Positions 125 through 30,311 of a stretch of 63,426 nucleotides of DNA are shown here, one piece after another. The DNA is from Bacillota bacterium. Its GTDB lineage: Bacteria > Bacillota > Limnochordia > DTU087. The notes beneath the pieces are model-generated. The model saw only the letters and a program-made list of their open reading frames with translations. It was not told the DNA's origin and searched no databases. Position 1 is the first letter of the stretch. Every line of letters starts with the position of its first letter. The stretch spans positions 1-63,426 of the forward strand of contig JAAZLW010000235.1 in assembly GCA_012799135.1 (NCBI GenBank), written 5' to 3'. The position numbers were made by a program, and so were the translations under genes.

Positions 125-408
125 ACGATCAGATGCAAAGGCGATGAAGAAGAGAAGTAGCTGGGTGATAACACCTGCAGGGACGGAGTGTCAGGGACTG
201 AAAGCACTCCGGGAGGTTGCCTCAGTGAAGTTCGCTTCGGAGCTGTTGGCTGAAAGCTTAGTAGGCCATACCGGATATCCGCCGTTAGATGGAGAGGGAG
301 GAGTATCTCTTCCCGAAAAGTGGACCTTTCATAGGTGTTTCTATGAAGGTAAGTAGGATGGTACCGCGCAGGTTGTCTTTCGTTCCTAACGGAAGACAAC
401 CTTTTTTG
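125..408 (+). promoter_or_regulatory. T-box leader (Phe specifier) controlling pheST
   Basis: The conserved T-box sequence GGATGGTACCGCG lies at 356-368. GTGAAG-TTC at 225-233 places a TTC (Phe) specifier codon at 231-233. A terminator hairpin follows immediately, and the element sits directly upstream of pheS. Confidence 0.8.
370..408 (+). terminator. T-box attenuator/terminator hairpin
   Basis: AGGTTGTCTT (370-379) pairs with AAGACAACCT (393-402) and is followed by TTTTTT. Confidence 0.8.
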
Positions 409-1494: not shown

Positions 1495-3891
1495 GTGCGT
1501 GTTTCCTATAGTTGGTTGCAGGAGCATGTTGATATTGATATAGATGTGCCCGAGTTGGCAGAGCTATTGACTTTGTCTGGCTCAGAAGTGGATAGTATCG
1601 GGCCAATAGGCAAAAGACTCGATGAGAAGATCATCGTCTGTCAGATTAGAGAACTCAAACTCCATCCCGATGGGAAGCTGCTGATCGCCAATCTAGATAC
1701 AGGCGGGGAGCCGGTAACGGTAGTAACCGGCGCGCCTAATGTGGCGGTAGGCCAGAAGCTCCCCCTAGCCATGGTAGGTTCTGTGCTGCCCAATGGGCAA
1801 GTCATCGAGGCAGTCACCTTTGGGGGCGTAACTTCCTATGGCATGCTCTGCTCTGAGCAGGAATTGGAGCTCGGAGATGATGCCAGTGGCATACTGGTCT
1901 TGCCAACAGATACACCGGTAGGCGTACCTTTAGGTGAGGCCCTGGCTTTGGATGACATGATTATCGACCTCGAGATTTACCCCAATCGGCCTGATTGTCT
2001 AAGCGTGATTGGCATAGCTCGGGAAGTGGCGGCTATTACTGGGAAAAGGCTACGGCATCCCGCCATCAGTGTAGAGGAAGCCGGACCACCGACTGCAGAT
2101 TTGACCTCTGTGACGGTGGAGGATGCGGAGCTATGTCCGTTCTATTCAGCTAGACTGATCAGGAATATCAAGGTAGGGCCGTCGCCTTTGTGGTTACAAA
2201 AACGGGTCCTAGCCGGTGGGATGCGACCGATCAATAATGTAGTTGACATTACCAACTTTGTGTTACTGGAGATGGGTCAACCCCTTCACGCCTTTGACTA
2301 TGAACGATTGTCGGGGAATCGTATTGTTGTACGACGCGCCCGAGCAAATGAGGTCATTACCACCCTTGATCATGAAACCAGGATTTTGGATCCGGAAACG
2401 CTGGTTATAGCTGATGCTGAAAAGCCGGTCTGCATTGCGGGCGTGATGGGAGGGACCAACACTGAGGTTGTCTTGGAGACAAATAGTATCTTGCTGGAGG
2501 CGGCAATTTTCCAAGGGGTAAGTGTTCGCCGTACCAGTCGGCGCCTAGGTTTGCGATCTGAGGCTTCAGCCCGCTTTGAAAAGGGACTTGATCCAAAAGG
2601 AGTCACAAGGGCTCTGGATAGGGCAGCCCAGCTGCTTGTAGAAATCGCCGGTGGCGAGGTATGTAAGGGCACAATCACGGTAACGAACATGGAGCCTAGA
2701 CAACAGGTCGTGACCCTTTCTCCGACCCGGTGTAATAAGCTTTTGGGGGCAGAGATCCCTACAGGTGATATGATCAGGATCTTGGCAAGTCTCGAGTTTG
2801 AGGTCAAGGAGCGTAGTGGGCTTTTGGAGGCAAAGGTGCCTTCTCACCGTCTGGATGTTGAGCTGGAGGCGGACTTAATCGAAGAGGTGGCGCGGCTATA
2901 TGGGTATGATCGGATAGTTGCCACTCTACCCCAGGGTAGTGCCCGAGGGGGTGAGAATCACCGGTTGAAGATAGCCGATCGGATCCGAGATTTGCTGGCA
3001 GGTGCCGGCCTAACTGAGATTATGACATATAGTTTTGATTCCCCGGCTAGTTATGAGAAACTGCTATTGCCGGAGGATCACCAGCTTAGACAGGCTGTCA
3101 CCATTCAGAATCCTCTGACTGAAGACTGGAGCGTTCTAAGGACTAGTCTAGTTCCTCACTTGCTCGATGTGTTACGCCATAATGCTCAAAGACAACAATC
3201 GGATCTCCAGATTTTCGAGATGGGGTCAGTTTATATCCCGCGTCGATTACCCCTGGATGAGCAACCGGATGAGCGCCTGACTCTAGGGATTGCCCTGATG
3301 GGAGACTATCCCCGAGAGTGGGGCTTTGCTCCTCGGACAGCAGATTTCTTTGACTTAAAGGGGCTGGTGGAGCTAATCTTTAGCAGGTTGGGCCTTAGCT
3401 GTAACTGGGAGGCGGCAGAGTCTGCAGGTCTGCATCCCGGTCGATGTGCTGCGATCAAATTGGGGAATACTAACGTAGGAATTCTAGGAGAAATACATCC
3501 CGAGGTGGCTGACAGTTGGGAGCTTTCAGCCCGGGCATATGTGGCTGAGCTTTGCCTGGAGTCTATTATTCCCCGTGTTAGTTGGCAACGGCGAGTAGAT
3601 AAGCTACCTCGCTATCCGGCTGTAGCCAGAGATTTGGCGCTATTGGCACCAGATACCATACCGGCGCATAGGATTCTGGAAGTGATTCAAGCTGCCGGTG
3701 ATGATCTGATCCAGAAGATCACTTTGTTTGATGTATACCAGGGTCGCCAGATCCCGACCGGATACCGCAGTTTGGCCTACTCCATCCTATATCAGGCAGA
3801 GGACCGCACCCTGACTGACAGTGAGGTTGAAGCTGTAGAGGATCGGATCATGGCACGATTGGAGAAAGAGCTAAGAATAACCCGGCGATGA
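1495..3891 (+). CDS. pheT: phenylalanine--tRNA ligase beta subunit
   Basis: 798-aa ORF with a GTG start. Typical PheT N-terminus (MRVSYSWLQEHVD), B3/4 and B5 regions, and a C-terminal anticodon-binding-like domain. Confidence 0.97.
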   Translation: MRVSYSWLQEHVDIDIDVPELAELLTLSGSEVDSIGPIGKRLDEKIIVCQIRELKLHPDGKLLIANLDTGGEPVTVVTGAPNVAVGQKLPLAMVGSVLPNGQVIEAVTFGGVTSYGMLCSEQELELGDDASGILVLPTDTPVGVPLGEALALDDMIIDLEIYPNRPDCLSVIGIAREVAAITGKRLRHPAISVEEAGPPTADLTSVTVEDAELCPFYSARLIRNIKVGPSPLWLQKRVLAGGMRPINNVVDITNFVLLEMGQPLHAFDYERLSGNRIVVRRARANEVITTLDHETRILDPETLVIADAEKPVCIAGVMGGTNTEVVLETNSILLEAAIFQGVSVRRTSRRLGLRSEASARFEKGLDPKGVTRALDRAAQLLVEIAGGEVCKGTITVTNMEPRQQVVTLSPTRCNKLLGAEIPTGDMIRILASLEFEVKERSGLLEAKVPSHRLDVELEADLIEEVARLYGYDRIVATLPQGSARGGENHRLKIADRIRDLLAGAGLTEIMTYSFDSPASYEKLLLPEDHQLRQAVTIQNPLTEDWSVLRTSLVPHLLDVLRHNAQRQQSDLQIFEMGSVYIPRRLPLDEQPDERLTLGIALMGDYPREWGFAPRTADFFDLKGLVELIFSRLGLSCNWEAAESAGLHPGRCAAIKLGNTNVGILGEIHPEVADSWELSARAYVAELCLESIIPRVSWQRRVDKLPRYPAVARDLALLAPDTIPAHRILEVIQAAGDDLIQKITLFDVYQGRQIPTGYRSLAYSILYQAEDRTLTDSEVEAVEDRIMARLEKELRITRR

Positions 3892-12639: not shown

Positions 12640-12977
12640 AAGTGATGGGTCGGCATGAATCTGTCGACCGTTTATCAGCGATGAAGGAGAGAGTAGCATT
12701 TGCTTCGGGCTGAAAGAGAGCCGGTGGAGGGTGCAAACCGGCGTCCGAGCTCATGTGAAGTACACTCCTGAGCTTTCCCGTTGAACCGTGCACCCCAGGG
12801 TGCGAGTAGTAGATGGGAACGGCAGCCACCGTTATTGGCTGAAGCGAAGCCGTGAACTAGCGCCAGTGTAGCCTAATCTTCTAACAACGGGATCAGACAC
12901 CGAAAGTGGCTAGTGCACTGCTTAACTAGGGTGGTACCGCGGGAGCCTCTCGTCCCTACAGGATGAGAGGCTTTTTG
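12640..12977 (+). promoter_or_regulatory. T-box leader (Tyr specifier) controlling tyrS
   Basis: GTGAAG-TAC places a TAC (Tyr) specifier codon at 12761-12763. The T-box sequence AGGGTGGTACCGCG lies at 12927-12940. The terminator AGCCTCTC/GAGAGGCT plus TTTTT lies at 12944-12977. Confidence 0.85.
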
Positions 12978-13011: not shown

Positions 13012-14247
13012 ATGTCTATACAGGTCTTATCATTGGAAGAAGAGCTGGCTCTGATCAAGCGGGGGACTGAGGAGATTTTCCCGGAAGAAGAACTAGTAGA
13101 GAAACTCAAGAAGTCTCGTCAGACCAGGAAGCCGCTCAAGGTAAAACTAGGGGTAGATCCTACCGGTGCAGATCTGCATCTAGGACACGTAATCCCTGTA
13201 CTGAAGCTGAAGCAGTTTCAGGATCTGGGTCATGAAGCAATTCTAATTATCGGGGACTATACAGCTATGGTAGGAGACCCTTCGGGCCGCAACAAGACTC
13301 GACCACAGCTCACCCATGAACAAGTCTTGGAAAACTGCCGTACGTATCAGGAGCAGGTTTTCCGAATCCTGGATCCCCAGAAGACAAGGGTAATGTACAA
13401 TGGCGCCTGGTTTAGCAAGATGACCTTCCAGGATGTGATCAAGCTCATGTCTCAGATGACCTTGGCCAGGATGCTGGAACGGGAGGATTTTGCGAGCCGC
13501 TTTCAGAATCAGATGCCTTTGAGCCTACACGAGCTGATCTATCCTCTCATGCAGGGATATGATTCGGCAGCCATTGAGGCCGACATCGAACTAGGTGGAA
13601 TTGACCAGAAGTTCAATATCTTGGTGGGAAGAGACTTACAGAAAACCATGGGGTTGGAGCCCCAAGTGGGTGTATGTAATCCGATCTTAATCGGGCTGGA
13701 TGGTAAGGAAAAAATGAGCAAGAGCTTAGGCAACTACATCGGGATCAAGGATCCCGCCAGTGAAATGTACGGGAAAACCATGTCGTTACCTGATGAGCAG
13801 ATGATGATGTACTTTGAACTAGTCACTGATGTATCTATGGCCAAGCTGCAGAAAATGGAAAAGCAACTAAAGACCGGTGAGTTGCATCCTAGGGATATGA
13901 AGCGTTTCTTGGCCAGAGAAATAGTGAGCCGGTTTCATGACCGGGATGCGGCAATAGAGGCCGAAGCTGAATTTGACCGTGTATTCAAGGAAAACCAAGT
14001 CCCTGAGGATATCCCCGAGGTAATCCTAACCACAGATGACTTGGAGGATGGGAAGATCTGGGTAGTACGGCTGCTGGTCAAGGCGGACCTGGCTACATCC
14101 AACGCAGAGGGCAGACGTTTGATTCAGCAAGGAGGAGTGAGGATCGACGGGGAAATCATTGACAACGTAGATCTGGACTGGGTGCCGAGGGCCAATGCAG
14201 TGGTGCAGGTAGGGAAACGGCGTTTTGCACGGGTAGTTGTGGCCTAG
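13012..14247 (+). CDS. tyrS: tyrosine--tRNA ligase
   Basis: HIGH-type motif (DLHLGHV), KMSKS motif, and a C-terminal S4-like domain ([15 protein letters not shown]). Confidence 0.96.
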
Positions 14248-15122: not shown

Positions 15123-15157
15123 CAAGAACCCAGTGAGGAGAACCTGCTGGGTTCTTG
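15123..15157. terminator. bidirectional hairpin between convergent yunB and the minus-strand island
   Basis: CAAGAACCCAG (15123-15133) pairs perfectly with CTGGGTTCTTG (15147-15157). 11-bp stem, 13-nt loop, no strong U-tract. Confidence 0.55.
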
Positions 15158-15223: not shown

Positions 15224-15544
15224 CTATTTGTCGTGTACACTGAGCTGCTGTCTCACCAGTTCAATCAACTTGCGAGAAGTGTATCGGCCGGATAGAACCA
15301 CTTTGCCATCAAGACAGACAGCTGGGAGTTGATCAGGATGCTCCTTAGCCCAGCTGATGGCTTGTGCTGGACATTCCTGGTCGGCTTGATCGATATCAAC
15401 ATAGGTGAGGACAAGTTGATTCGGGAAGTGAAGGTTCAGCTGCCGCAGATAGAAAGCAGCGACCTCAGCCTGAGGCCGTATCCTACCTTTTCAACCATAG
15501 CATGTACTATGGGTCTTGGAACCGAGGATAATTACATGTAGCAT
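15224..15544 (-). CDS. thioredoxin/glutaredoxin-fold protein with in-frame UGA in a C-x-x-U motif (candidate selenoprotein; YuzD/DUF1462- or Grx-like)
   Basis: ATG at 15544-15542 is preceded by AAAGAGGA. The translation is MLHVIILGSKTHSTCYG-[TGA 15493-15491]-KGRIRPQAEVAAFYLRQLNLHFPNQLVLTYVDIDQ...QLPAVCLDGKVVLSGRYTSRKLIELVRQQLSVHDK, ending at TAG 15226-15224. 88 sense codons follow the TGA, and the first ATG/GTG/TTG among them is codon 64. A hairpin at 15460-15478 lies just 3' of the TGA. The ORF is absent from the track because it is split by the TGA. Confidence 0.55.
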
Positions 15545-16020
15545 GTTGGCGAGTCCTCTTTCTGGTCAGATACTGATAGATCCTCTTCGTGGTCACATAC
15601 TGACAAGTCCTCTTTCTGGTCAGCATCCTGTTTACAGCTCACATCAGCCAAGTGCGTGAAGGCCATCAGAGCACGCTGCTTAATCTCTTCAGGGTCTCGG
15701 ATCCAGTCCACCCATTGCCTGTCTGTAATCATTCTCTTCAGAAATCCAAGCCATGCATTTTTCTCATCGGAACCATCCAGGTTGGTGAGTTCCCATGGAG
15801 GTGGCTGATCTTTGGTAAGGCTACCTTGCTGACATGCCTGATAATGAGCCCAAAGTAAAGCTAGTGCAAAAGGATTAGGTTGATCGCTTTCACTCGCTGA
15901 CCCATGGCTTGTTTGGGCTATTTCAACTTGAATATCCTCCGGGCGCAGAGGTTCAGGAGATGTTTTCGTTACCTTGTAGTACCGCTGTAACCTAACAGTA
16001 GTTGATTTGCCGCCAGGCAT
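15532..16020 (-). CDS. hypothetical protein with acidic C-terminal tandem repeats
   Basis: 162-aa ORF. The ATG is preceded by AGGGGGG. No family recognised. The C-terminus contains EDLSVCDHE/EDLSVSDQK repeats. Its last 13 nt overlap the start of the downstream thioredoxin-fold ORF. Confidence 0.55.
   Translation of the reverse strand: MPGGKSTTVRLQRYYKVTKTSPEPLRPEDIQVEIAQTSHGSASESDQPNPFALALLWAHYQACQQGSLTKDQPPPWELTNLDGSDEKNAWLGFLKRMITDRQWVDWIRDPEEIKQRALMAFTHLADVSCKQDADQKEDLSVCDHEEDLSVSDQKEDSPTCYM
15552..15623. repeat. 27-bp tandem repeat, about 2.7 copies, inside the 162-aa ORF
   Basis: Units are 15552-15578, 15579-15605 (21/27 identical to unit 1) and 15606-15623 (18/18 identical to the start of unit 1). 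Confidence 0.85.
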
Positions 16021-16051: not shown

Positions 16052-16083
16052 GGGAGTGCACACTCCTTGTGCTTTGCACTCCC
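16052..16083. repeat. 9-bp perfect inverted repeat (intergenic hairpin) between the 49-aa and 162-aa genes
   Basis: GGGAGTGCA (16052-16060) pairs with TGCACTCCC (16075-16083) across a 14-nt loop. No U-tract on either strand. Confidence 0.5.
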
Positions 16084-16189: not shown

Positions 16190-16339
16190 TTACCCTACTG
16201 GCGGACAGGGTCCGAGGCATTCTACTCCGGTCACATCGACACTCGCCGTCACGGTAAAGGTAACCTCGAAAGTAACACAGATGAGCTCATTGAACTCATC
16301 AATACACTGATTGACCTGCTGTTGCTGGAGCCTTGCCAT
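16190..16339 (-). CDS. 49-aa Cys-rich protein, paralogous to the N-terminal domain of the 187-aa neighbour
   Basis: ATG at 16339 lies 6 nt after GAGGAGGTG. The translation is MARLQQQQVNQCIDEFNELICVTFEVTFTVTASVDVTGVECLGPCPPVG, ending at TAA 16192-16190. It is about 50% identical over about 43 aa to residues 6-48 of the 16476-17039 product, with all four Cys aligned. It is below the track's length cut-off. Confidence 0.7.
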   Translation of the reverse strand: MARLQQQQVNQCIDEFNELICVTFEVTFTVTASVDVTGVECLGPCPPVG

Positions 16340-16475: not shown

Positions 16476-17039
16476 TTACGGACAGGGGCAAGCAGGTCCT
16501 AACTGACAATCGGGATTCACTGTAGCCGGTGCCGGACCACCCTTTGCGGCCACATCCCTGAGCACCTGATCAAACTGTCCCATCACGTCAAAGCAATACA
16601 AGACGACTCCATCGGCCTGGGTTGTGCCGGCATCGAATTTAAGGCCAGATTGTCCTCCCAGATCGGCTTGGGGACCAACGTTGAACGGGATAGGAATCCC
16701 ATTACGTGTAACTTGTGTGACCATAGGAGGGGGATTGCAGAGTTCAAGCACCCAATGGCTGAGTGCCGGATCACCCTGGACACTCACCCGATAGCACCAG
16801 CGCTGGATGGGCCCTAGCTGCTGCACACTCGCAAAGACAATGTGATAGATTGCCGTCTGTCCGGTCTGTGGGTTGGTTACCTCCAGAACGCAGAGCACTT
16901 CCGGGGCACAGGGGCCTAAGCAGTCTACATCAATAACTTCATCGGTGGCCTCGGCGGTGAAAGTAATGGTGAAGGTGGTACAGATCTGTTCATCGAACTC
17001 ATCGGTGCAGGCAGGGATTTGCTGCAGCTCTTGATTCAT
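16476..17039 (-). CDS. 187-aa Cys-rich protein of unknown function
   Basis: ATG is preceded by AAGGAGGTG. The N-terminal domain QQIPACTDEFDEQICTTFTITFTAEATDEVIDVDCLGPCAPEV is shared with the 49-aa ORF. The C-terminus is CQLGPACPCP. No family recognised. Confidence 0.75.
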   Translation of the reverse strand: MNQELQQIPACTDEFDEQICTTFTITFTAEATDEVIDVDCLGPCAPEVLCVLEVTNPQTGQTAIYHIVFASVQQLGPIQRWCYRVSVQGDPALSHWVLELCNPPPMVTQVTRNGIPIPFNVGPQADLGGQSGLKFDAGTTQADGVVLYCFDVMGQFDQVLRDVAAKGGPAPATVNPDCQLGPACPCP

Positions 17040-27368: not shown

Positions 27369-28376
27369 ATGAACATCCGGATCCGAGAGGAAGCTTGGGA
27401 ACGGCAGTATCTCTCCCCATATGCAGCTTTGAGCGCAGCGAGCCGAGGCCGTGCCCATTTGGAGCCTGAATGCGAAGTACGGACAGTGTTTCAACGGGAT
27501 CGGGATCGATTGCTGCATGCGAAGGCGTTCCGCCGTCTTATGGGGAAGACGCAGGTGTTCATATCTCCGACTGGAGATCACTACCGAACTCGGCTTACCC
27601 ATACACTGGAAGTTGCACAGATTTCCCGAACAGTGGCTAGGGCTCTACGCCTGAATGAAGCTTTGACAGAGGCTATTGCCCTGGGGCATGATCTTGGCCA
27701 TACCCCGTTCGGTCATGCGGGCGAGGCGGCTTTGGACCGATTACTTGAATCAGGGTTTCGCCACAATGACCAGAGCCTGCGGGTGGTCGATGTCGTGGAA
27801 GGAGTTCGAGATTACAGTCAGGGACTAAACCTTACCTATGAGGTGAGAGATGGTATTCTATGTCATACGGGTGATCGCCGCCCTGCTACGCTGGAGGGTG
27901 AGGTGGTCAGGATTTGCGATCGAGTTGCCTATATTAACCATGACATAGATGATGCCATTCGCGCAGGGCTGCTGCGAGAGGAGGAGCTTCCTACAGAGTG
28001 TCAGGAGGTATTGGGTACTGGACGACGCCAACGCATAGATAACATGGTAAAGGACTTGATCACCAACAGCTGGGAGAAAGCCGAAATTACCATGTCACCA
28101 CCGCTGGCCCATGCAACAAGTGCATTACGGGAGTTTCTCTTCAAGAACATATACATGACACATAGTGCGGCTAAGGAGAAGGACAAGATCTATGGTCTTA
28201 TCTCCAGTCTTTTCGATTTTTACTTGGCGAATCCCCTACGCTTGCCTATAGAGTGGCGGGAAGGCCGAGAAGATGAGCCTCCTCGTTTGGTGGCAGACTA
28301 TATCGCGGGTATGACTGATCGATATGCCATAGCGGAGTATGAGAGACTTTTCCTACCTAGGGCCTGGTCGCTATGA
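27369..28376 (+). CDS. dGTPase-like HD-domain triphosphohydrolase
   Basis: FQRDRDRLLHAKAFRRL, TRLTHTLEVAQISR, GHDLGHTPFGHAGE, and a C-terminal DYIAGMTDRYA. It occupies the usual position upstream of dnaG-sigA. Confidence 0.9.
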   Translation: MNIRIREEAWERQYLSPYAALSAASRGRAHLEPECEVRTVFQRDRDRLLHAKAFRRLMGKTQVFISPTGDHYRTRLTHTLEVAQISRTVARALRLNEALTEAIALGHDLGHTPFGHAGEAALDRLLESGFRHNDQSLRVVDVVEGVRDYSQGLNLTYEVRDGILCHTGDRRPATLEGEVVRICDRVAYINHDIDDAIRAGLLREEELPTECQEVLGTGRRQRIDNMVKDLITNSWEKAEITMSPPLAHATSALREFLFKNIYMTHSAAKEKDKIYGLISSLFDFYLANPLRLPIEWREGREDEPPRLVADYIAGMTDRYAIAEYERLFLPRAWSL

Positions 28377-28418
28377 GGCAGGATTATACATACGTACAGC
28401 GAACACGTATCAGGCGGG

Positions 28419-30311
28419 GTGAATGGTATGTCTGCTCCTATTCCAGAACAGGTCATTGCTGAGATTAGAGAGCGCAATGATATTGTTTCCGTCATATCAG
28501 AGTATGTCCAGTTGCGAAGGACCGGTAAGAATTGGAAGGGTCTTTGCCCATTCCATACCGAGAAGACTCCGTCGTTTAATGTCAACCAAGAAGAGCAGTT
28601 TTACTATTGTTTTGGCTGTGGCGTAGGTGGTAACGTAATCAATTTCATCATGGCTATAGAGAATCTTCCCTTTCTTGAGGCTCTGGAGCGGCTGGCCGAA
28701 CGGGCGGGCATACCACTTGTCTCGAAGACTGTTAGCCCCCAGGAGAAGCGGGAGCGCTCAAAGCGGGAGAAGCTTGTGCAGTTGCACCAAGCGGCTCAGA
28801 AGTTCTTTAGCCGTAACTTGTTCAGTAATGCTGGTATTAGCGCCAGGGAGTATTTGGCCGCCAGAGGCATCCAAGAGGAAACGGCTCGTCGATTTGGCCT
28901 CGGTTTTGCTCTGTCCGAGTGGAGAGGTCTTCTGACATATCTGGAGCACCAAGGGTTTGACCGAGCAGATTGTCTGGCGGCAGGGTTGATTTCAGAAGGG
29001 CAAAGTGGTAGAGATTATGATCGTTTCCGGGGTCGTGTGATGTTCCCTATCTGCAATGGTCGGGGACAGACCATTGCCTTTGGTGGGAGAGTACTCGATG
29101 AGTCACAGCCAAAGTACCTCAACTCACCGGAGACACTGATATTTAGTAAGGGGAATAATCTGTATAGGCTAGATTTGGCCAGGGCTGCTTTTCGGCAACA
29201 AGGGTTTGCTGTTGTGGTTGAAGGATACATGGATGTGATTGGACTCTATGAGGCGGGACTAAACAATGCTGTCGCCTCTTTGGGGACGGCCTTGACCGAA
29301 ACGCAGGCTCGAGTATTGCATCGGTTTACCGATGAGGTAGTCATCGCCTTCGATGGGGATGCAGCCGGTGAAGCTGCTGCTTGGCGAGGACTGGAGATAC
29401 TACGAAATCAGGGTCTGCGGGTGCGGGTGCTGGAACTGCCCGGTGGGGAGGACCCGGATACCTTTGTGCGGACTCATGGACGGCAAGCCTTTGATGACTT
29501 GATCAGTAAAGCAGCAGGATTGACAGAATTCAAGCTGAGTACGATTATTCGCCGAGGTGATGCATCCACCGTCGATGGAAAAGTTGCTACCACAGGAAGG
29601 ATTATCGAGGTATTGGCGGAAATAGATAGTCCTGTGGAGAAGAGCGAATACCTGCGTTGGGCGGCCGCGATGCTGAAGGTCAATCAGAATGTGCTGGAAG
29701 CGGAATTGGCAGCCTATGAGGCAAAAGCAGGTATTGAAAGCAGCTCTGGGCATAGAATCTCTGCAAGGAGCAATAATAGGAAAGATGGTAAGGGTACGAG
29801 CAGAGCTGATTCTAAAAGGGTTGGTCGCCCCGGAGGACGATTGGGTTTAGGCAGTTTTGTCGGACTATCGGCGATTGAGGCTAATTTGCTGCGGCTATTG
29901 CTCCATGACAGGTATTTGATCTCCCAGGTGCGAAATGTGTTATCTCCCAGTGATTTTCGGCACCCGGTAGCACAAAAGACCATGGAGTGTTTACTGGCCT
30001 GTGATGAGGCCGGTCAGTTGGACAGTGGAGCTGCAGTCCTTGACTATGCTAAGGATGCCAGTGTCCATAGACTGCTCACTGGATTACTGGCTTCCAGGAC
30101 AAGTTTGCCACCATCACAGACATGTATGCACTACGTTCGTCGATTGCAGATCATGCAACTGAAAGATGATCTTAAGCGATTGGAGGAACAAATCGGGCGG
30201 GTGGAGCATAATTTTCCAGATAGTGATCTAGTGAACCAGCTTGATAGCCTATTGATTAGATATCGACAAGTAAGGGAAGAGATTAGTGAGGGGTTCTCAC
30301 CAGGGCACTAG
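28419..30311 (+). CDS. dnaG: DNA primase
   Basis: Zinc ribbon CPFHTEKTPSF...CFGCG, TOPRIM region (VVVEGYMDVI...FDGDAAG). Confidence 0.96.
   Translation: MNGMSAPIPEQVIAEIRERNDIVSVISEYVQLRRTGKNWKGLCPFHTEKTPSFNVNQEEQFYYCFGCGVGGNVINFIMAIENLPFLEALERLAERAGIPLVSKTVSPQEKRERSKREKLVQLHQAAQKFFSRNLFSNAGISAREYLAARGIQEETARRFGLGFALSEWRGLLTYLEHQGFDRADCLAAGLISEGQSGRDYDRFRGRVMFPICNGRGQTIAFGGRVLDESQPKYLNSPETLIFSKGNNLYRLDLARAAFRQQGFAVVVEGYMDVIGLYEAGLNNAVASLGTALTETQARVLHRFTDEVVIAFDGDAAGEAAAWRGLEILRNQGLRVRVLELPGGEDPDTFVRTHGRQAFDDLISKAAGLTEFKLSTIIRRGDASTVDGKVATTGRIIEVLAEIDSPVEKSEYLRWAAAMLKVNQNVLEAELAAYEAKAGIESSSGHRISARSNNRKDGKGTSRADSKRVGRPGGRLGLGSFVGLSAIEANLLRLLLHDRYLISQVRNVLSPSDFRHPVAQKTMECLLACDEAGQLDSGAAVLDYAKDASVHRLLTGLLASRTSLPPSQTCMHYVRRLQIMQLKDDLKRLEEQIGRVEHNFPDSDLVNQLDSLLIRYRQVREEISEGFSPGH

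What the first reader, a model, noticed from the sequence alone, without database searches (positions are those of the whole stretch)
15224..15544. Unannotated thioredoxin-fold ORF with UGA in a C-x-x-U redox motif and a SECIS-like hairpin: candidate selenoprotein
On the minus strand, an ATG at 15544 (AAAGAGGA lies 9 nt upstream) opens MLHVIILGSKTHSTCYG. An in-frame TGA follows at 15493-15491, and then 88 further sense codons run to TAG 15226-15224.

- **No alternative start.** The first ATG/GTG/TTG after the TGA is 64 codons downstream, so the long open stretch cannot be an independent gene.
- **Position of the TGA.** It falls where the second Cys of a CxxC motif would sit (beta-strand VIILG, then T-C-Y-G-U). 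The rest looks like a glutaredoxin/NrdH/YuzD-type fold: FPNQLVLTYVDID, then LPAVCLDGKVVLSG, which resembles the Grx TVP...DG..iGG segment. As I recall B. subtilis YuzD (DUF1462), it aligns well around YPNQ...YIDI, but I cannot verify this here.
- **Hairpin.** Twelve nt 3' of the TGA is an 8-bp hairpin, CGGCCTCA-GGC-TGAGGTCG (15478-15460), with GG in the apical loop. This is where bacterial SECIS elements lie.

CxxU thiol-disulfide oxidoreductases are a recurring class of bacterial selenoproteins.
Basis: partly seen in the sequence, partly recalled or inferred. Interest (0 to 1): 0.85.

Follow-up and report, generated by a model that had tools for sequence, protein, structure and literature searches.

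The report
Unannotated YuzD-like selenoprotein gene
A small gene that annotation pipelines miss because it contains a UGA "stop" very probably encodes a thioredoxin-fold redox protein with selenocysteine in its active site, and it appears to be a selenoprotein family not yet in the published catalogues.

Summary
The minus-strand ORF 15544..15224 has one in-frame TGA (15493-15491) in a T-C-Y-G-U motif, followed 12 nt later by an 8-bp hairpin with a GGC loop.

Three other Bacillota MAG species carry intact orthologues (62-77% amino-acid identity). All keep the TGA at codon 18, show strong purifying selection on both sides of it, and keep the hairpin. Five independent assemblies of the window's own species also have the TGA.

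UGA is a normal stop in this organism. The hairpin meets all four published bacterial SECIS criteria, and its core codons are nucleotide-invariant (p about 9e-4).

Profile-profile comparison aligns the family end to end with YuzD/DUF1462, a thioredoxin fold (PDB 1XG8). Sec falls on the second Cys of YuzD's CxxC, and the cis-Pro is conserved.

No predicted protein in two multi-billion-sequence collections matches it. Public gene calls place a spurious antisense ORF there instead. The family is absent from a 2026 catalogue of 119 selenoprotein families and matches no NCBIfam model.

The main gap is that selA/selB/selC/selD could not be looked for in the source genome.

Verdict: a real, previously unrecognised Sec-containing YuzD-like oxidoreductase, and a new member of a known kind.

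The parts
15224..15544 (-). Complete selenoprotein coding sequence: 106 residues including Sec18, then the TAG stop.
   Evidence: Intact orthologues in L001-L003 (62-77% amino-acid identity). pN 0.11-0.30 against pS 0.5-0.9 on both sides of the TGA. Variable sites by codon position are 46/32/90 of 105.
15554..15561 (-). Shine-Dalgarno-like AAAGAGGA, 9 nt before the ATG. It lies inside the 3' end of the upstream gene.
   Evidence: Orthologues have AGAGAGGA, AGGAGGA or AAAGAGG at the same place.
15491..15502 (-). Redox motif codons TGC TAT GGT TGA = C15-Y-G-U18. The Sec codon TGA is 15491-15493.
   Evidence: TGA is invariant in 4 orthologues and in 5 same-species assemblies. It aligns with CASC of YuzD.
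15460..15478 (-). SECIS upper stem-loop: 8-bp stem, apical loop GGC, 20 nt between the UGA and the loop.
   Evidence: All four bSECIS criteria quoted are met. Codons 24-27 are nucleotide-invariant: 4/6 identical codons against 2/44 elsewhere, p=9e-4.
15447..15488 (-). Possible extended SECIS, adding a lower 8-bp stem around the upper hairpin.
   Evidence: RNAalifold consensus. The lower stem is only partly conserved, with broken pairs in 1 of 4 sequences at four positions, so it is tentative.
15323..15325 (-). Codon for invariant Pro74, aligned with the conserved Pro of the YuzD 'FYPL' segment (the thioredoxin-fold cis-Pro position).
15532..16020 (-). Upstream gene B (162 aa, no known family). 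It overlaps the selenoprotein start by 13 nt, so the two are probably co-translated in one operon.
   Evidence: The gene is conserved and abuts or overlaps the selenoprotein gene in all four species (13-nt overlap, or a 7-11 nt gap). No Pfam, NCBIfam or PDB match.
16190..16339 (-). Conserved small gene A' (49 aa, 4 Cys), a short paralogue of the N-terminus of protein A.
   Evidence: It has its own RBS, GAGGAGGTGA, and 3-periodic conservation across four species.
16476..17039 (-). Gene A: a Cys-rich protein (11 Cys in 187 aa, no signal peptide by eye, no known family). It is the first gene of the conserved minus-strand cluster.
   Evidence: No family match.

Best explanation
The ORF 15544..15224 (minus strand) is a functional selenoprotein gene. 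The ribosome reaches UGA at codon 18. The stem-loop that starts 12 nt downstream acts as a bacterial SECIS element and recruits SelB-GTP-Sec-tRNA(Sec). Selenocysteine is inserted and translation continues for 88 more codons, giving a 106-residue cytoplasmic protein.

The protein is a remote, Sec-containing relative of the YuzD/DUF1462 branch of the thioredoxin fold. Its active site is C15-x-x-U18 at the start of helix 1, opposite a conserved cis-Pro (P74). It most likely works as a thiol/selenol-disulfide oxidoreductase that cycles between a selenenylsulfide (Cys15-S-Se-Sec18) and the reduced thiol/selenol.

The gene is the last one in a four-gene cluster conserved in all four species: Cys-rich protein A, its small paralogue A', unknown protein B, then the selenoprotein. 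It is translationally linked to B. Its substrate or partner is therefore probably encoded in that cluster.

Shown: the conserved UGA, the conserved frame under purifying selection, the conserved SECIS-type hairpin, the standard genetic code, and profile-level homology to YuzD with Sec on the second Cys of CxxC.

Inferred: actual Sec insertion, the redox chemistry, and the link to the cluster partners.
For: - Sequence as described.
- Orthologues in three other Bacillota MAG species keep TGA at codon 18 and have no other stop or frameshift. A JGI metagenome contig repeats one of them.
- Five independent assemblies of the window's species keep the TGA. Their only polymorphisms are two synonymous changes and one L->F, all outside the TGA and hairpin.
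- Purifying selection acts on both sides of the TGA (pN 0.11-0.30, pS 0.5-0.9). Variation follows third codon positions in the sense frame.
- UGA is a genuine stop here: 13 of 43 long ORFs end in TGA, and the L002 orthologue itself ends in TGA.
- The hairpin is intact in all four species, with only one-sided G-C/G-U/A-U changes.
- Loop GGC, 8-bp stem, 20-nt spacing and -8.9 to -11.0 kcal/mol satisfy the four bSECIS criteria quoted from PMC13188914.
- The hairpin core shows extra synonymous constraint (Fisher p=9e-4).
- hhalign against 18 YuzD proteins gives E 2.9e-5 and probability 74% over 100 columns, with CxxU on CxxC and Pro on Pro. Controls reach a score of at most 19.1 against 31.7.
- The best PDB hit is 1XG8, which is DUF1462. 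Sub-threshold Pfam and NCBIfam hits are all to thioredoxin-clan families.
- DUF1462/1XG8 is documented as a thioredoxin fold (PMC3091736).
- CxxU is a recurrent motif in catalogued selenoproteins.
Against: - No selA, selB, selD or tRNA-Sec was found in the 63-kb window or the fetched loci, and the rest of the genome could not be searched. The organism's ability to insert Sec is therefore unproven.
- No compensatory (two-sided) base-pair changes support the hairpin.
- No Rfam SECIS model matches.
- Comparable hairpins follow 1.2% of all TGA trinucleotides.
- Homology to YuzD is only profile-level. Pfam DUF1462 scores 14.6 bits against a cutoff of 25. No usable 3D model could be made, because the tool refuses the U-containing sequence and the fragment model had pLDDT 50.
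- Only four species are known, all uncultured.
Confidence: 0.82

Rival explanations
1. UGA at codon 18 is read through without selenocysteine. A near-cognate or suppressor tRNA inserts Trp or Cys, possibly stimulated by the downstream hairpin, so the full-length protein is made but carries no selenium.
For: The evidence for a full-length product does not say which amino acid is inserted. Sec machinery was not found in the sequence available.
Against: The UGA sits exactly on the redox Cys of the homologous CxxC motif. That is the signature of Sec/Cys pairs, and a Cys codon would be a simpler way to obtain Cys there. The hairpin meets the specific SECIS criteria, including G in the loop and the right spacing. 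UGA has been kept in four lineages even though synonymous sites are saturated. No precedent was checked here for conserved hairpin-driven UGA read-through at a catalytic Cys position.
Confidence: 0.07
2. It is a pseudogene: a thioredoxin-like gene inactivated by a nonsense mutation.
For: There is an in-frame stop at codon 18, and no annotated product in any database.
Against: Four orthologues diverged to 60-76% nucleotide identity all keep the same single TGA. They have no other stop or frameshift over 88 downstream codons, and pN is far below pS downstream. Variation is concentrated at third codon positions.
Confidence: 0.02
3. The first 17 codons are a leader peptide ending at UGA. The hairpin is an intrinsic terminator or attenuator, and the downstream sequence is not translated in this frame.
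For: The simple terminator scan flags the hairpin with the tail CTGCTTTCTA.
Against: The 'T-run' is just the codons for A-A-F-Y. It is interrupted by C and differs between species. The downstream 88 codons are conserved as protein. The N-terminal 17 residues align with strand 1 and the first Cys of YuzD, as one domain with the rest.
Confidence: 0.02
4. The real gene is the 67-70-aa ORF on the plus strand (15329..15541) that public annotation calls, and the minus-strand ORF is a shadow of it.
For: Gene callers chose this ORF on five contigs. It is open for 81 codons in the window.
Against: That frame is broken in all three orthologues, with longest open stretches of 28-35 codons. Substitution periodicity follows the minus-strand frame.
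Confidence: 0.01

Closest known systems
YuzD / DUF1462 family (Pfam PF07315; S. aureus SA0798, PDB 1XG8; B. subtilis YuzD, 'putative disulfide oxidoreductase')
   Same: Both are single-domain proteins of about 105 residues. hhalign aligns them end to end. The CxxC-type motif follows strand 1. The 'YPN/FPN...(T)Y(I/V)DI' segment is shared, as are the conserved Pro before strand 3 and the C-terminal helix. This family is the top PDB hit and a recurrent sub-threshold Pfam hit. The thioredoxin fold is documented.
   Different: The second Cys is replaced by Sec encoded by UGA plus SECIS. Identity is only about 18%, and scores fall below Pfam's gathering threshold. The YuzD proteins sampled here are Staphylococcaceae/Bacillales proteins, whereas this family is in uncultured anaerobic-digester Bacillota. 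The genomic context differs. YuzD's own function has not been established experimentally as far as the searched literature shows.
Catalogued CxxU selenoproteins of thioredoxin-like or related folds (SelW-like PF10262, AhpD-like, GrdA, DUF1858, Trx7/PDZ; PMC13188914 Table 1)
   Same: They share the same recoding mechanism, the same CxxU arrangement with Sec at the C-terminal position, and a presumed selenenylsulfide redox cycle.
   Different: None of their Pfam or NCBIfam models matches these proteins, even at E<=1. This is a different sequence family.
Thioredoxin-like selenoproteins Sec.1 / Sec.2 (PF13192 Thioredoxin_3) and the MTH895/ArsE redox_disulf_2 family (TIGR00412)
   Same: These are small single-domain thioredoxin-like proteins. 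There are weak hits (E 0.007-0.06) over the C-terminal strand3-strand4-helix region in all four orthologues.
   Different: The catalogued motifs are CxU and UxC, not CxxU. The hits cover only about 22 residues and lie far below the cutoffs.
Bacterial Sec-containing thioredoxin and glutaredoxin (PF00085, PF00462)
   Same: They are thioredoxin-fold redox selenoproteins decoded through a SECIS inside the ORF.
   Different: In those families Sec is at the N-terminal position (UxxC). There is no detectable sequence match.
ArsD metallochaperone (PF06953 / NF033727)
   Same: It belongs to the thioredoxin-like clan. There is a weak hit to the C-terminal part (E about 0.007-0.025).
   Different: The hit covers only residues 66-94 and is far below the cutoff (16 bits against 90). 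From my own recollection of the family, ArsD has a characteristic Cys12-Cys13-Cys18 arrangement, and the motif here is a single C-x-x-U. There are no ars genes nearby.

Membership tests
Bacterial selenoprotein (SECIS-directed UGA recoding) | In-frame UGA conserved at the same codon in orthologues, with a conserved coding sequence on both sides | tested here: met
   4 of 4 species and 5 further assemblies keep the TGA. pN is far below pS both upstream and downstream.
Bacterial selenoprotein (SECIS-directed UGA recoding) | bSECIS model: 3-9 nt apical loop on a 4-16 bp stem; G in the first two loop positions; 16-37 nt from UGA to the loop; MFE <= -7.5 kcal/mol | tested here: met
   Loop GGC, 8-bp stem, 20 nt spacing and -8.9 to -11.0 kcal/mol in all four orthologues. 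Criteria taken from PMC13188914.
Bacterial selenoprotein (SECIS-directed UGA recoding) | Sec aligns with Cys in homologues (a Sec/Cys pair) | tested here: met
   U18 aligns with the second Cys of CASC in 18 YuzD proteins. This holds only at profile level; no close Cys-form was found.
Bacterial selenoprotein (SECIS-directed UGA recoding) | Genome encodes selA, selB, selD and tRNA-Sec | not testable with these tools
   None is present in the window or loci. The genome and metagenome scans were exhausted, and the rest of the source genome is not held.
Bacterial selenoprotein (SECIS-directed UGA recoding) | UGA is otherwise a stop codon in the organism (not a reassigned code) | tested here: met
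   13 of 43 long ORFs end in TGA. The L002 orthologue ends in TGA.
Bacterial selenoprotein (SECIS-directed UGA recoding) | Selenium physically incorporated at the UGA position | not testable with these tools
   This requires 75Se labelling or mass spectrometry.
YuzD / DUF1462 (PF07315) | Score at or above Pfam's gathering threshold (25 bits) | tested here: not met
   14.6 bits, E 0.043 for the window protein. The best E among the four is 0.0022, with 3 of 4 members hit.
YuzD / DUF1462 (PF07315) | Full-length profile-profile homology with a matching CxxC position and conserved Pro | tested here: met
   hhalign E 2.9e-5, probability 74%, residues 4-106 against 6-109. Controls score 19.1 or less against 31.7. 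1XG8 is the top PDB hit at E 0.27.
YuzD / DUF1462 (PF07315) | Thioredoxin-fold 3D structure superposable on 1XG8 | tested here: inconclusive
The C-terminal fragment model has pLDDT 50, with a helix-strand-strand-helix order consistent with the fold but not reliable.
Thioredoxin_3 (PF13192) / redox_disulf_2 (TIGR00412), including catalogued Sec.1/Sec.2 selenoproteins | Score above the curated cutoff, and a CxU or UxC motif | tested here: not met
   13.8-15 bits against cutoffs of 24.8 and 62. Only about 22 residues are covered, and the motif here is CxxU.
Any curated NCBIfam selenoprotein family (NF04xxxx models of the Haft and Zhang catalogues) | HMM hit to a named selenoprotein model | tested here: not met
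   The only hit is TsoC at E 0.13 in 1 of 4 members, which is noise. PF07315 is absent from the 119-family table.

The most novel reading that the evidence does not exclude
This is an obligate-Sec family with no Cys-form within ordinary sequence-search reach. It serves as the dedicated redox partner of a conserved module found only in a small clade of spore-forming anaerobic Bacillota: Cys-rich protein A, its 49-aa paralogue A', and unknown protein B. In other words, it would be a selenium-dependent disulfide-handling step for Cys-rich, signal-peptide-less structural proteins, possibly of the spore coat. It would also show that homology-filtered selenoprotein pipelines systematically miss such families.
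Probability: 0.15. Interest if true: 0.7.

Novelty: new member of a known kind. Interest (0 to 1): 0.55.

Why it matters
- It adds a selenoprotein family, Sec-containing YuzD-like, that is absent from a 2026 catalogue of 119 prokaryotic families and from NCBI's curated models. It is also invisible in predicted proteomes covering about 15 billion proteins.
- It is a concrete example of the blind spot that current pipelines admit to. deep-Sep keeps a candidate only if it has a known Sec-containing homologue or Cys homologues among its top hits (PMC12013277). This family has only profile-level Cys relatives.
- It corrects a systematic mis-annotation, in which a spurious antisense ORF is called instead.
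- It gives the uncharacterised YuzD/DUF1462 family independent support for a redox role. Selection for Sec at the second CxxC position argues that this position is catalytically important.
- It points to an uncharacterised four-gene cluster in digester Bacillota as the place to look for a substrate.

Tried and rejected
**Searches and predictions that led nowhere**
- Protein searches with the U->C protein, the 88-aa C-terminal part and the 4-sequence profile found no true homologue. The five phmmer hits are internal repeats of long repetitive proteins.
- Structure prediction failed. The C-terminal fragment alone gave pLDDT 50, and partner B gave pLDDT 44. No fold search was therefore run.
- Rfam at a permissive threshold gave no SECIS family match.
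- Sec machinery was not found. tRNA scans of the window and loci, and Pfam scans of 20 window ORFs, found no selA, selB, selD or tRNA-Sec.
- A scan for other TGA-interrupted coding regions found none convincing.
- Partners A, A' and B have no Pfam, NCBIfam or PDB match even at E<=1.
- Upstream DNA alignment gave no recognisable sporulation-sigma promoter.

**Literature**
- No paper links DUF1462 or YuzD to selenoproteins.
- Bare 'YuzD' searches returned noise.
- The one YuzD mention in a bacteriocin paper is incidental gene neighbourhood.
- The BSepDB supplement and the Haft 2023 paper are not held.

**Explanations rejected**
- Pseudogene, altered code, sequencing error, leader-peptide attenuator and antisense gene; see the rival explanations.
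- An internal non-canonical start after the UGA. The AAGGTAGG-ATA in the window is not conserved in the orthologues.

Full report
**1. The observation.** Reading the minus strand confirms every detail.
- The ATG is at 15544-15542, with AAAGAGGA 9 nt upstream (15561-15554).
- The first 17 codons read MLHVIILGSKTHSTCYG, followed by TGA at 15493-15491.
- Another 88 sense codons run to TAG 15226-15224.
- The first possible restart codon after the TGA is GTG at codon 82.
- The hairpin CGGCCTCA-GGC-TGAGGTCG lies at 15478-15460, 12 nt after the TGA.

A hairpin of this quality follows 26 of 2203 TGA trinucleotides in the window (1.2%), and many of those are terminators after real stops. On its own the hairpin is only suggestive.

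**2. Comparative evidence.** A DNA-level scan of one genome per GTDB species found three related loci, all in uncultured Bacillota MAGs from anaerobic digesters (L001-L003). A metagenome scan found one more contig, identical to L002.

All three orthologues are intact ORFs of 105-110 codons. Each has a single in-frame TGA at codon 18, in the context T-C-[Y/H]-G-TGA. Amino-acid identity to the window protein is 62-77% and nucleotide identity is 60-76%.

- Synonymous sites are near saturation (pS 0.5-0.9), while pN is 0.11-0.30, both upstream and downstream of the TGA.
- Variable sites fall 46/32/90 on codon positions 1/2/3.
- Five further assemblies of the window's own species, from different samples, all carry the TGA. 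Their only differences are two synonymous changes and one L->F elsewhere in the gene.

These results exclude a base-calling error and a pseudogene. TGA ends 13 of the window's 43 long ORFs, and the L002 orthologue itself ends in TGA. UGA is therefore not reassigned.

**3. The RNA element.** The 8-bp stem is intact in all four species. The only changes are one-sided (G-C to G-U, G.U to A-U), and there are no compensatory double changes.

The published bacterial SECIS model (PMC13188914, Fig. 2) sets four criteria:
- a 3-9 nt loop on a 4-16 bp stem;
- a G in the first two loop positions;
- 16-37 nt from the UGA to the loop;
- MFE <= -7.5 kcal/mol.

All four orthologues have loop GGC, 8 bp, 20 nt spacing and -8.9 to -11.0 kcal/mol, so all criteria are met.

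Codons 24-27 (CCT CAG GCT GAG), the core of the stem-loop, are nucleotide-identical in all four species. Equally conserved amino acids elsewhere use two to four different codons. Identical codons occur at 4 of 6 hairpin positions against 2 of 44 elsewhere (Fisher p = 9e-4). That points to selection on the RNA as well as on the protein. A lower stem is predicted but is only partly conserved. Rfam's SECIS models do not match.

**4. The protein.** Pfam and NCBIfam give only sub-threshold hits, all within the thioredoxin-like clan:
- DUF1462, in 3 of 4 members (best E 0.0022), covering most of the model;
- Thioredoxin_3 and redox_disulf_2, in 4 of 4 members, over the C-terminal ~22 residues only;
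- ArsD, over the C-terminal part only.

A profile of the four proteins finds 1XG8 (S. aureus SA0798, DUF1462) as its top PDB hit, at E 0.27.

I collected real YuzD/DUF1462 proteins, aligned 18 of them and ran hhalign. The result was E 2.9e-5 and probability 74%, with 100 columns covering residues 4-106 against 6-109. T-C-Y-G-U lies on I-C-A-S-C, HFPNQ...TYVDID lies on KYPN...TYIDI, and L-P74-A-V lies on Y-P-L-V, the cis-Pro position.

Controls score far lower. The best of 30 column shuffles reached 19.1 over at most 31 columns, and the reversed profile reached 11.4, against 31.7 for the real alignment. DUF1462/1XG8 is documented as a thioredoxin fold, SCOP c.47.1.17 (PMC3091736).

The protein is therefore a remote Sec-containing relative of YuzD. 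It does not meet the Pfam family's threshold. A 3D test was not possible.

**5. Why it is invisible.** None of the following found a true homologue:
- a word-indexed search of 5.8 billion clusters with the U->C protein;
- the same search with the four-sequence profile;
- an exhaustive phmmer search of 1.84 billion representatives with the 88-residue post-UGA part.

Gene callers instead place a 67-aa ORF on the opposite strand. That frame is broken in all three orthologues.

**6. Context.** The gene is the last in a minus-strand island within an otherwise plus-strand housekeeping region. The region contains T-box/TyrRS, PBP1A, YunB, a PgsA-like gene, PrsW, YebC, the dcw cluster, DnaG and RpoD, and its base composition is normal.

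All four species share the same cluster, lying divergent from PgsA-like/PrsW/YebC:
- A, a Cys-rich protein of about 190 aa (11 Cys);
- A', a conserved 49-aa paralogue of A's N-terminus;
- B, a protein of about 150 aa;
- the selenoprotein.

B overlaps the selenoprotein start by 13 nt in the window and in L003, and ends 7-11 nt before it in L001 and L002. The two are very probably co-translated. A, A' and B match no known family or structure. No Sec machinery lies in the window or the loci.

**7. Mechanism.** The best-supported reading is SECIS-directed insertion of selenocysteine at codon 18. This gives a 106-residue thioredoxin-fold protein whose C15-x-x-U18 centre cycles between a selenenylsulfide and a thiol/selenol. 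It probably acts on a partner encoded in the cluster.

The recoding signals and the homology are shown. Sec insertion itself, the chemistry and the partner are inferred.

Four rivals were considered:
- Sec-independent read-through remains possible but is disfavoured by the position of the UGA and the SECIS geometry.
- A pseudogene is refuted.
- A leader peptide plus attenuator is disfavoured, because the T-run consists of A-A-F-Y codons and the downstream sequence is conserved as protein.
- The antisense gene is refuted.

**8. Novelty.** The 2026 catalogue of 119 prokaryotic selenoprotein families and subfamilies has no DUF1462/YuzD entry. Its PF13192 thioredoxin-like entries use CxU or UxC motifs. 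No NCBIfam selenoprotein model matches, and no paper in the library links DUF1462 with selenoproteins.

deep-Sep's authors note that their method may filter out selenoproteins that lack Cys-containing homologues. This family has only profile-level Cys relatives.

It is therefore a new family of a well-known kind. It would be of solid interest to selenoprotein and annotation specialists, but it is not a new mechanism.

**9. Main gap.** The presence of selA, selB, selC and selD in these genomes was not testable here. That check is simple and decisive.

Noticed in passing
window 16190-16339 (-) and 16476-17039 (-): A conserved 49-aa gene (MARLQQQQVNQCIDEFNELICVTFEVTFTVTA...VECLGPCPPVG) is a short paralogue of the N-terminus of the adjacent 187-aa Cys-rich protein (11 Cys). 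Both are conserved in all four species, lack any family match, and sit in the same cluster as the selenoprotein.
   Followed up: partly
window 16052-16083 (-), about 30 nt upstream of gene B's start at 16020: A conserved inverted repeat, GGGAGTGCA...TGCACTCCC, forms a 10-12 bp hairpin in all four species. It has no compensatory changes and no T-run. It could be a terminator for the small gene, an operator, or a leader structure for gene B.
   Followed up: partly
window 15329-15541 (+): Public gene calls on five contigs of this species place a 67-aa ORF antisense to the selenoprotein gene. The frame is broken in the orthologues, so it is a spurious shadow ORF.
   Followed up: yes
window 15123-15157: A 13-bp hairpin (CAAGAACCCAG...CTGGGTTCTTG) lies between the convergent yunB-like gene (ends 15118) and the selenoprotein gene (ends 15224). 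It may be a shared bidirectional terminator, although it has no clear U-run on either strand.
   Followed up: no
window 135-390 (+) and 12672-12960 (+): Two T-box leaders score above Rfam's gathering threshold. The second lies directly upstream of a 411-aa ORF (13012-14247) that I took by eye to be the tyrosyl-tRNA synthetase gene. The first precedes a 338-aa ORF (440-1456) and a 798-aa ORF (1495-3891) whose identities were not checked.
   Followed up: no
L001 10414-10612 (-): In one orthologous locus the selenoprotein gene is followed within 150 nt by tRNA-Ala(TGC) and tRNA-Ile(GAT) on the opposite strand, close to the contig end. This pair is typical of an rRNA operon spacer, yet there is no room for a 23S gene. 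It could be an unlinked rRNA arrangement or an assembly break.
   Followed up: no
window 27369-30311 (+): The HD-domain phosphohydrolase gene ends in a TGA that is in frame with the following dnaG gene. My TGA-join scan flagged it, but it looks like two ordinary adjacent genes rather than a recoding site.
   Followed up: partly
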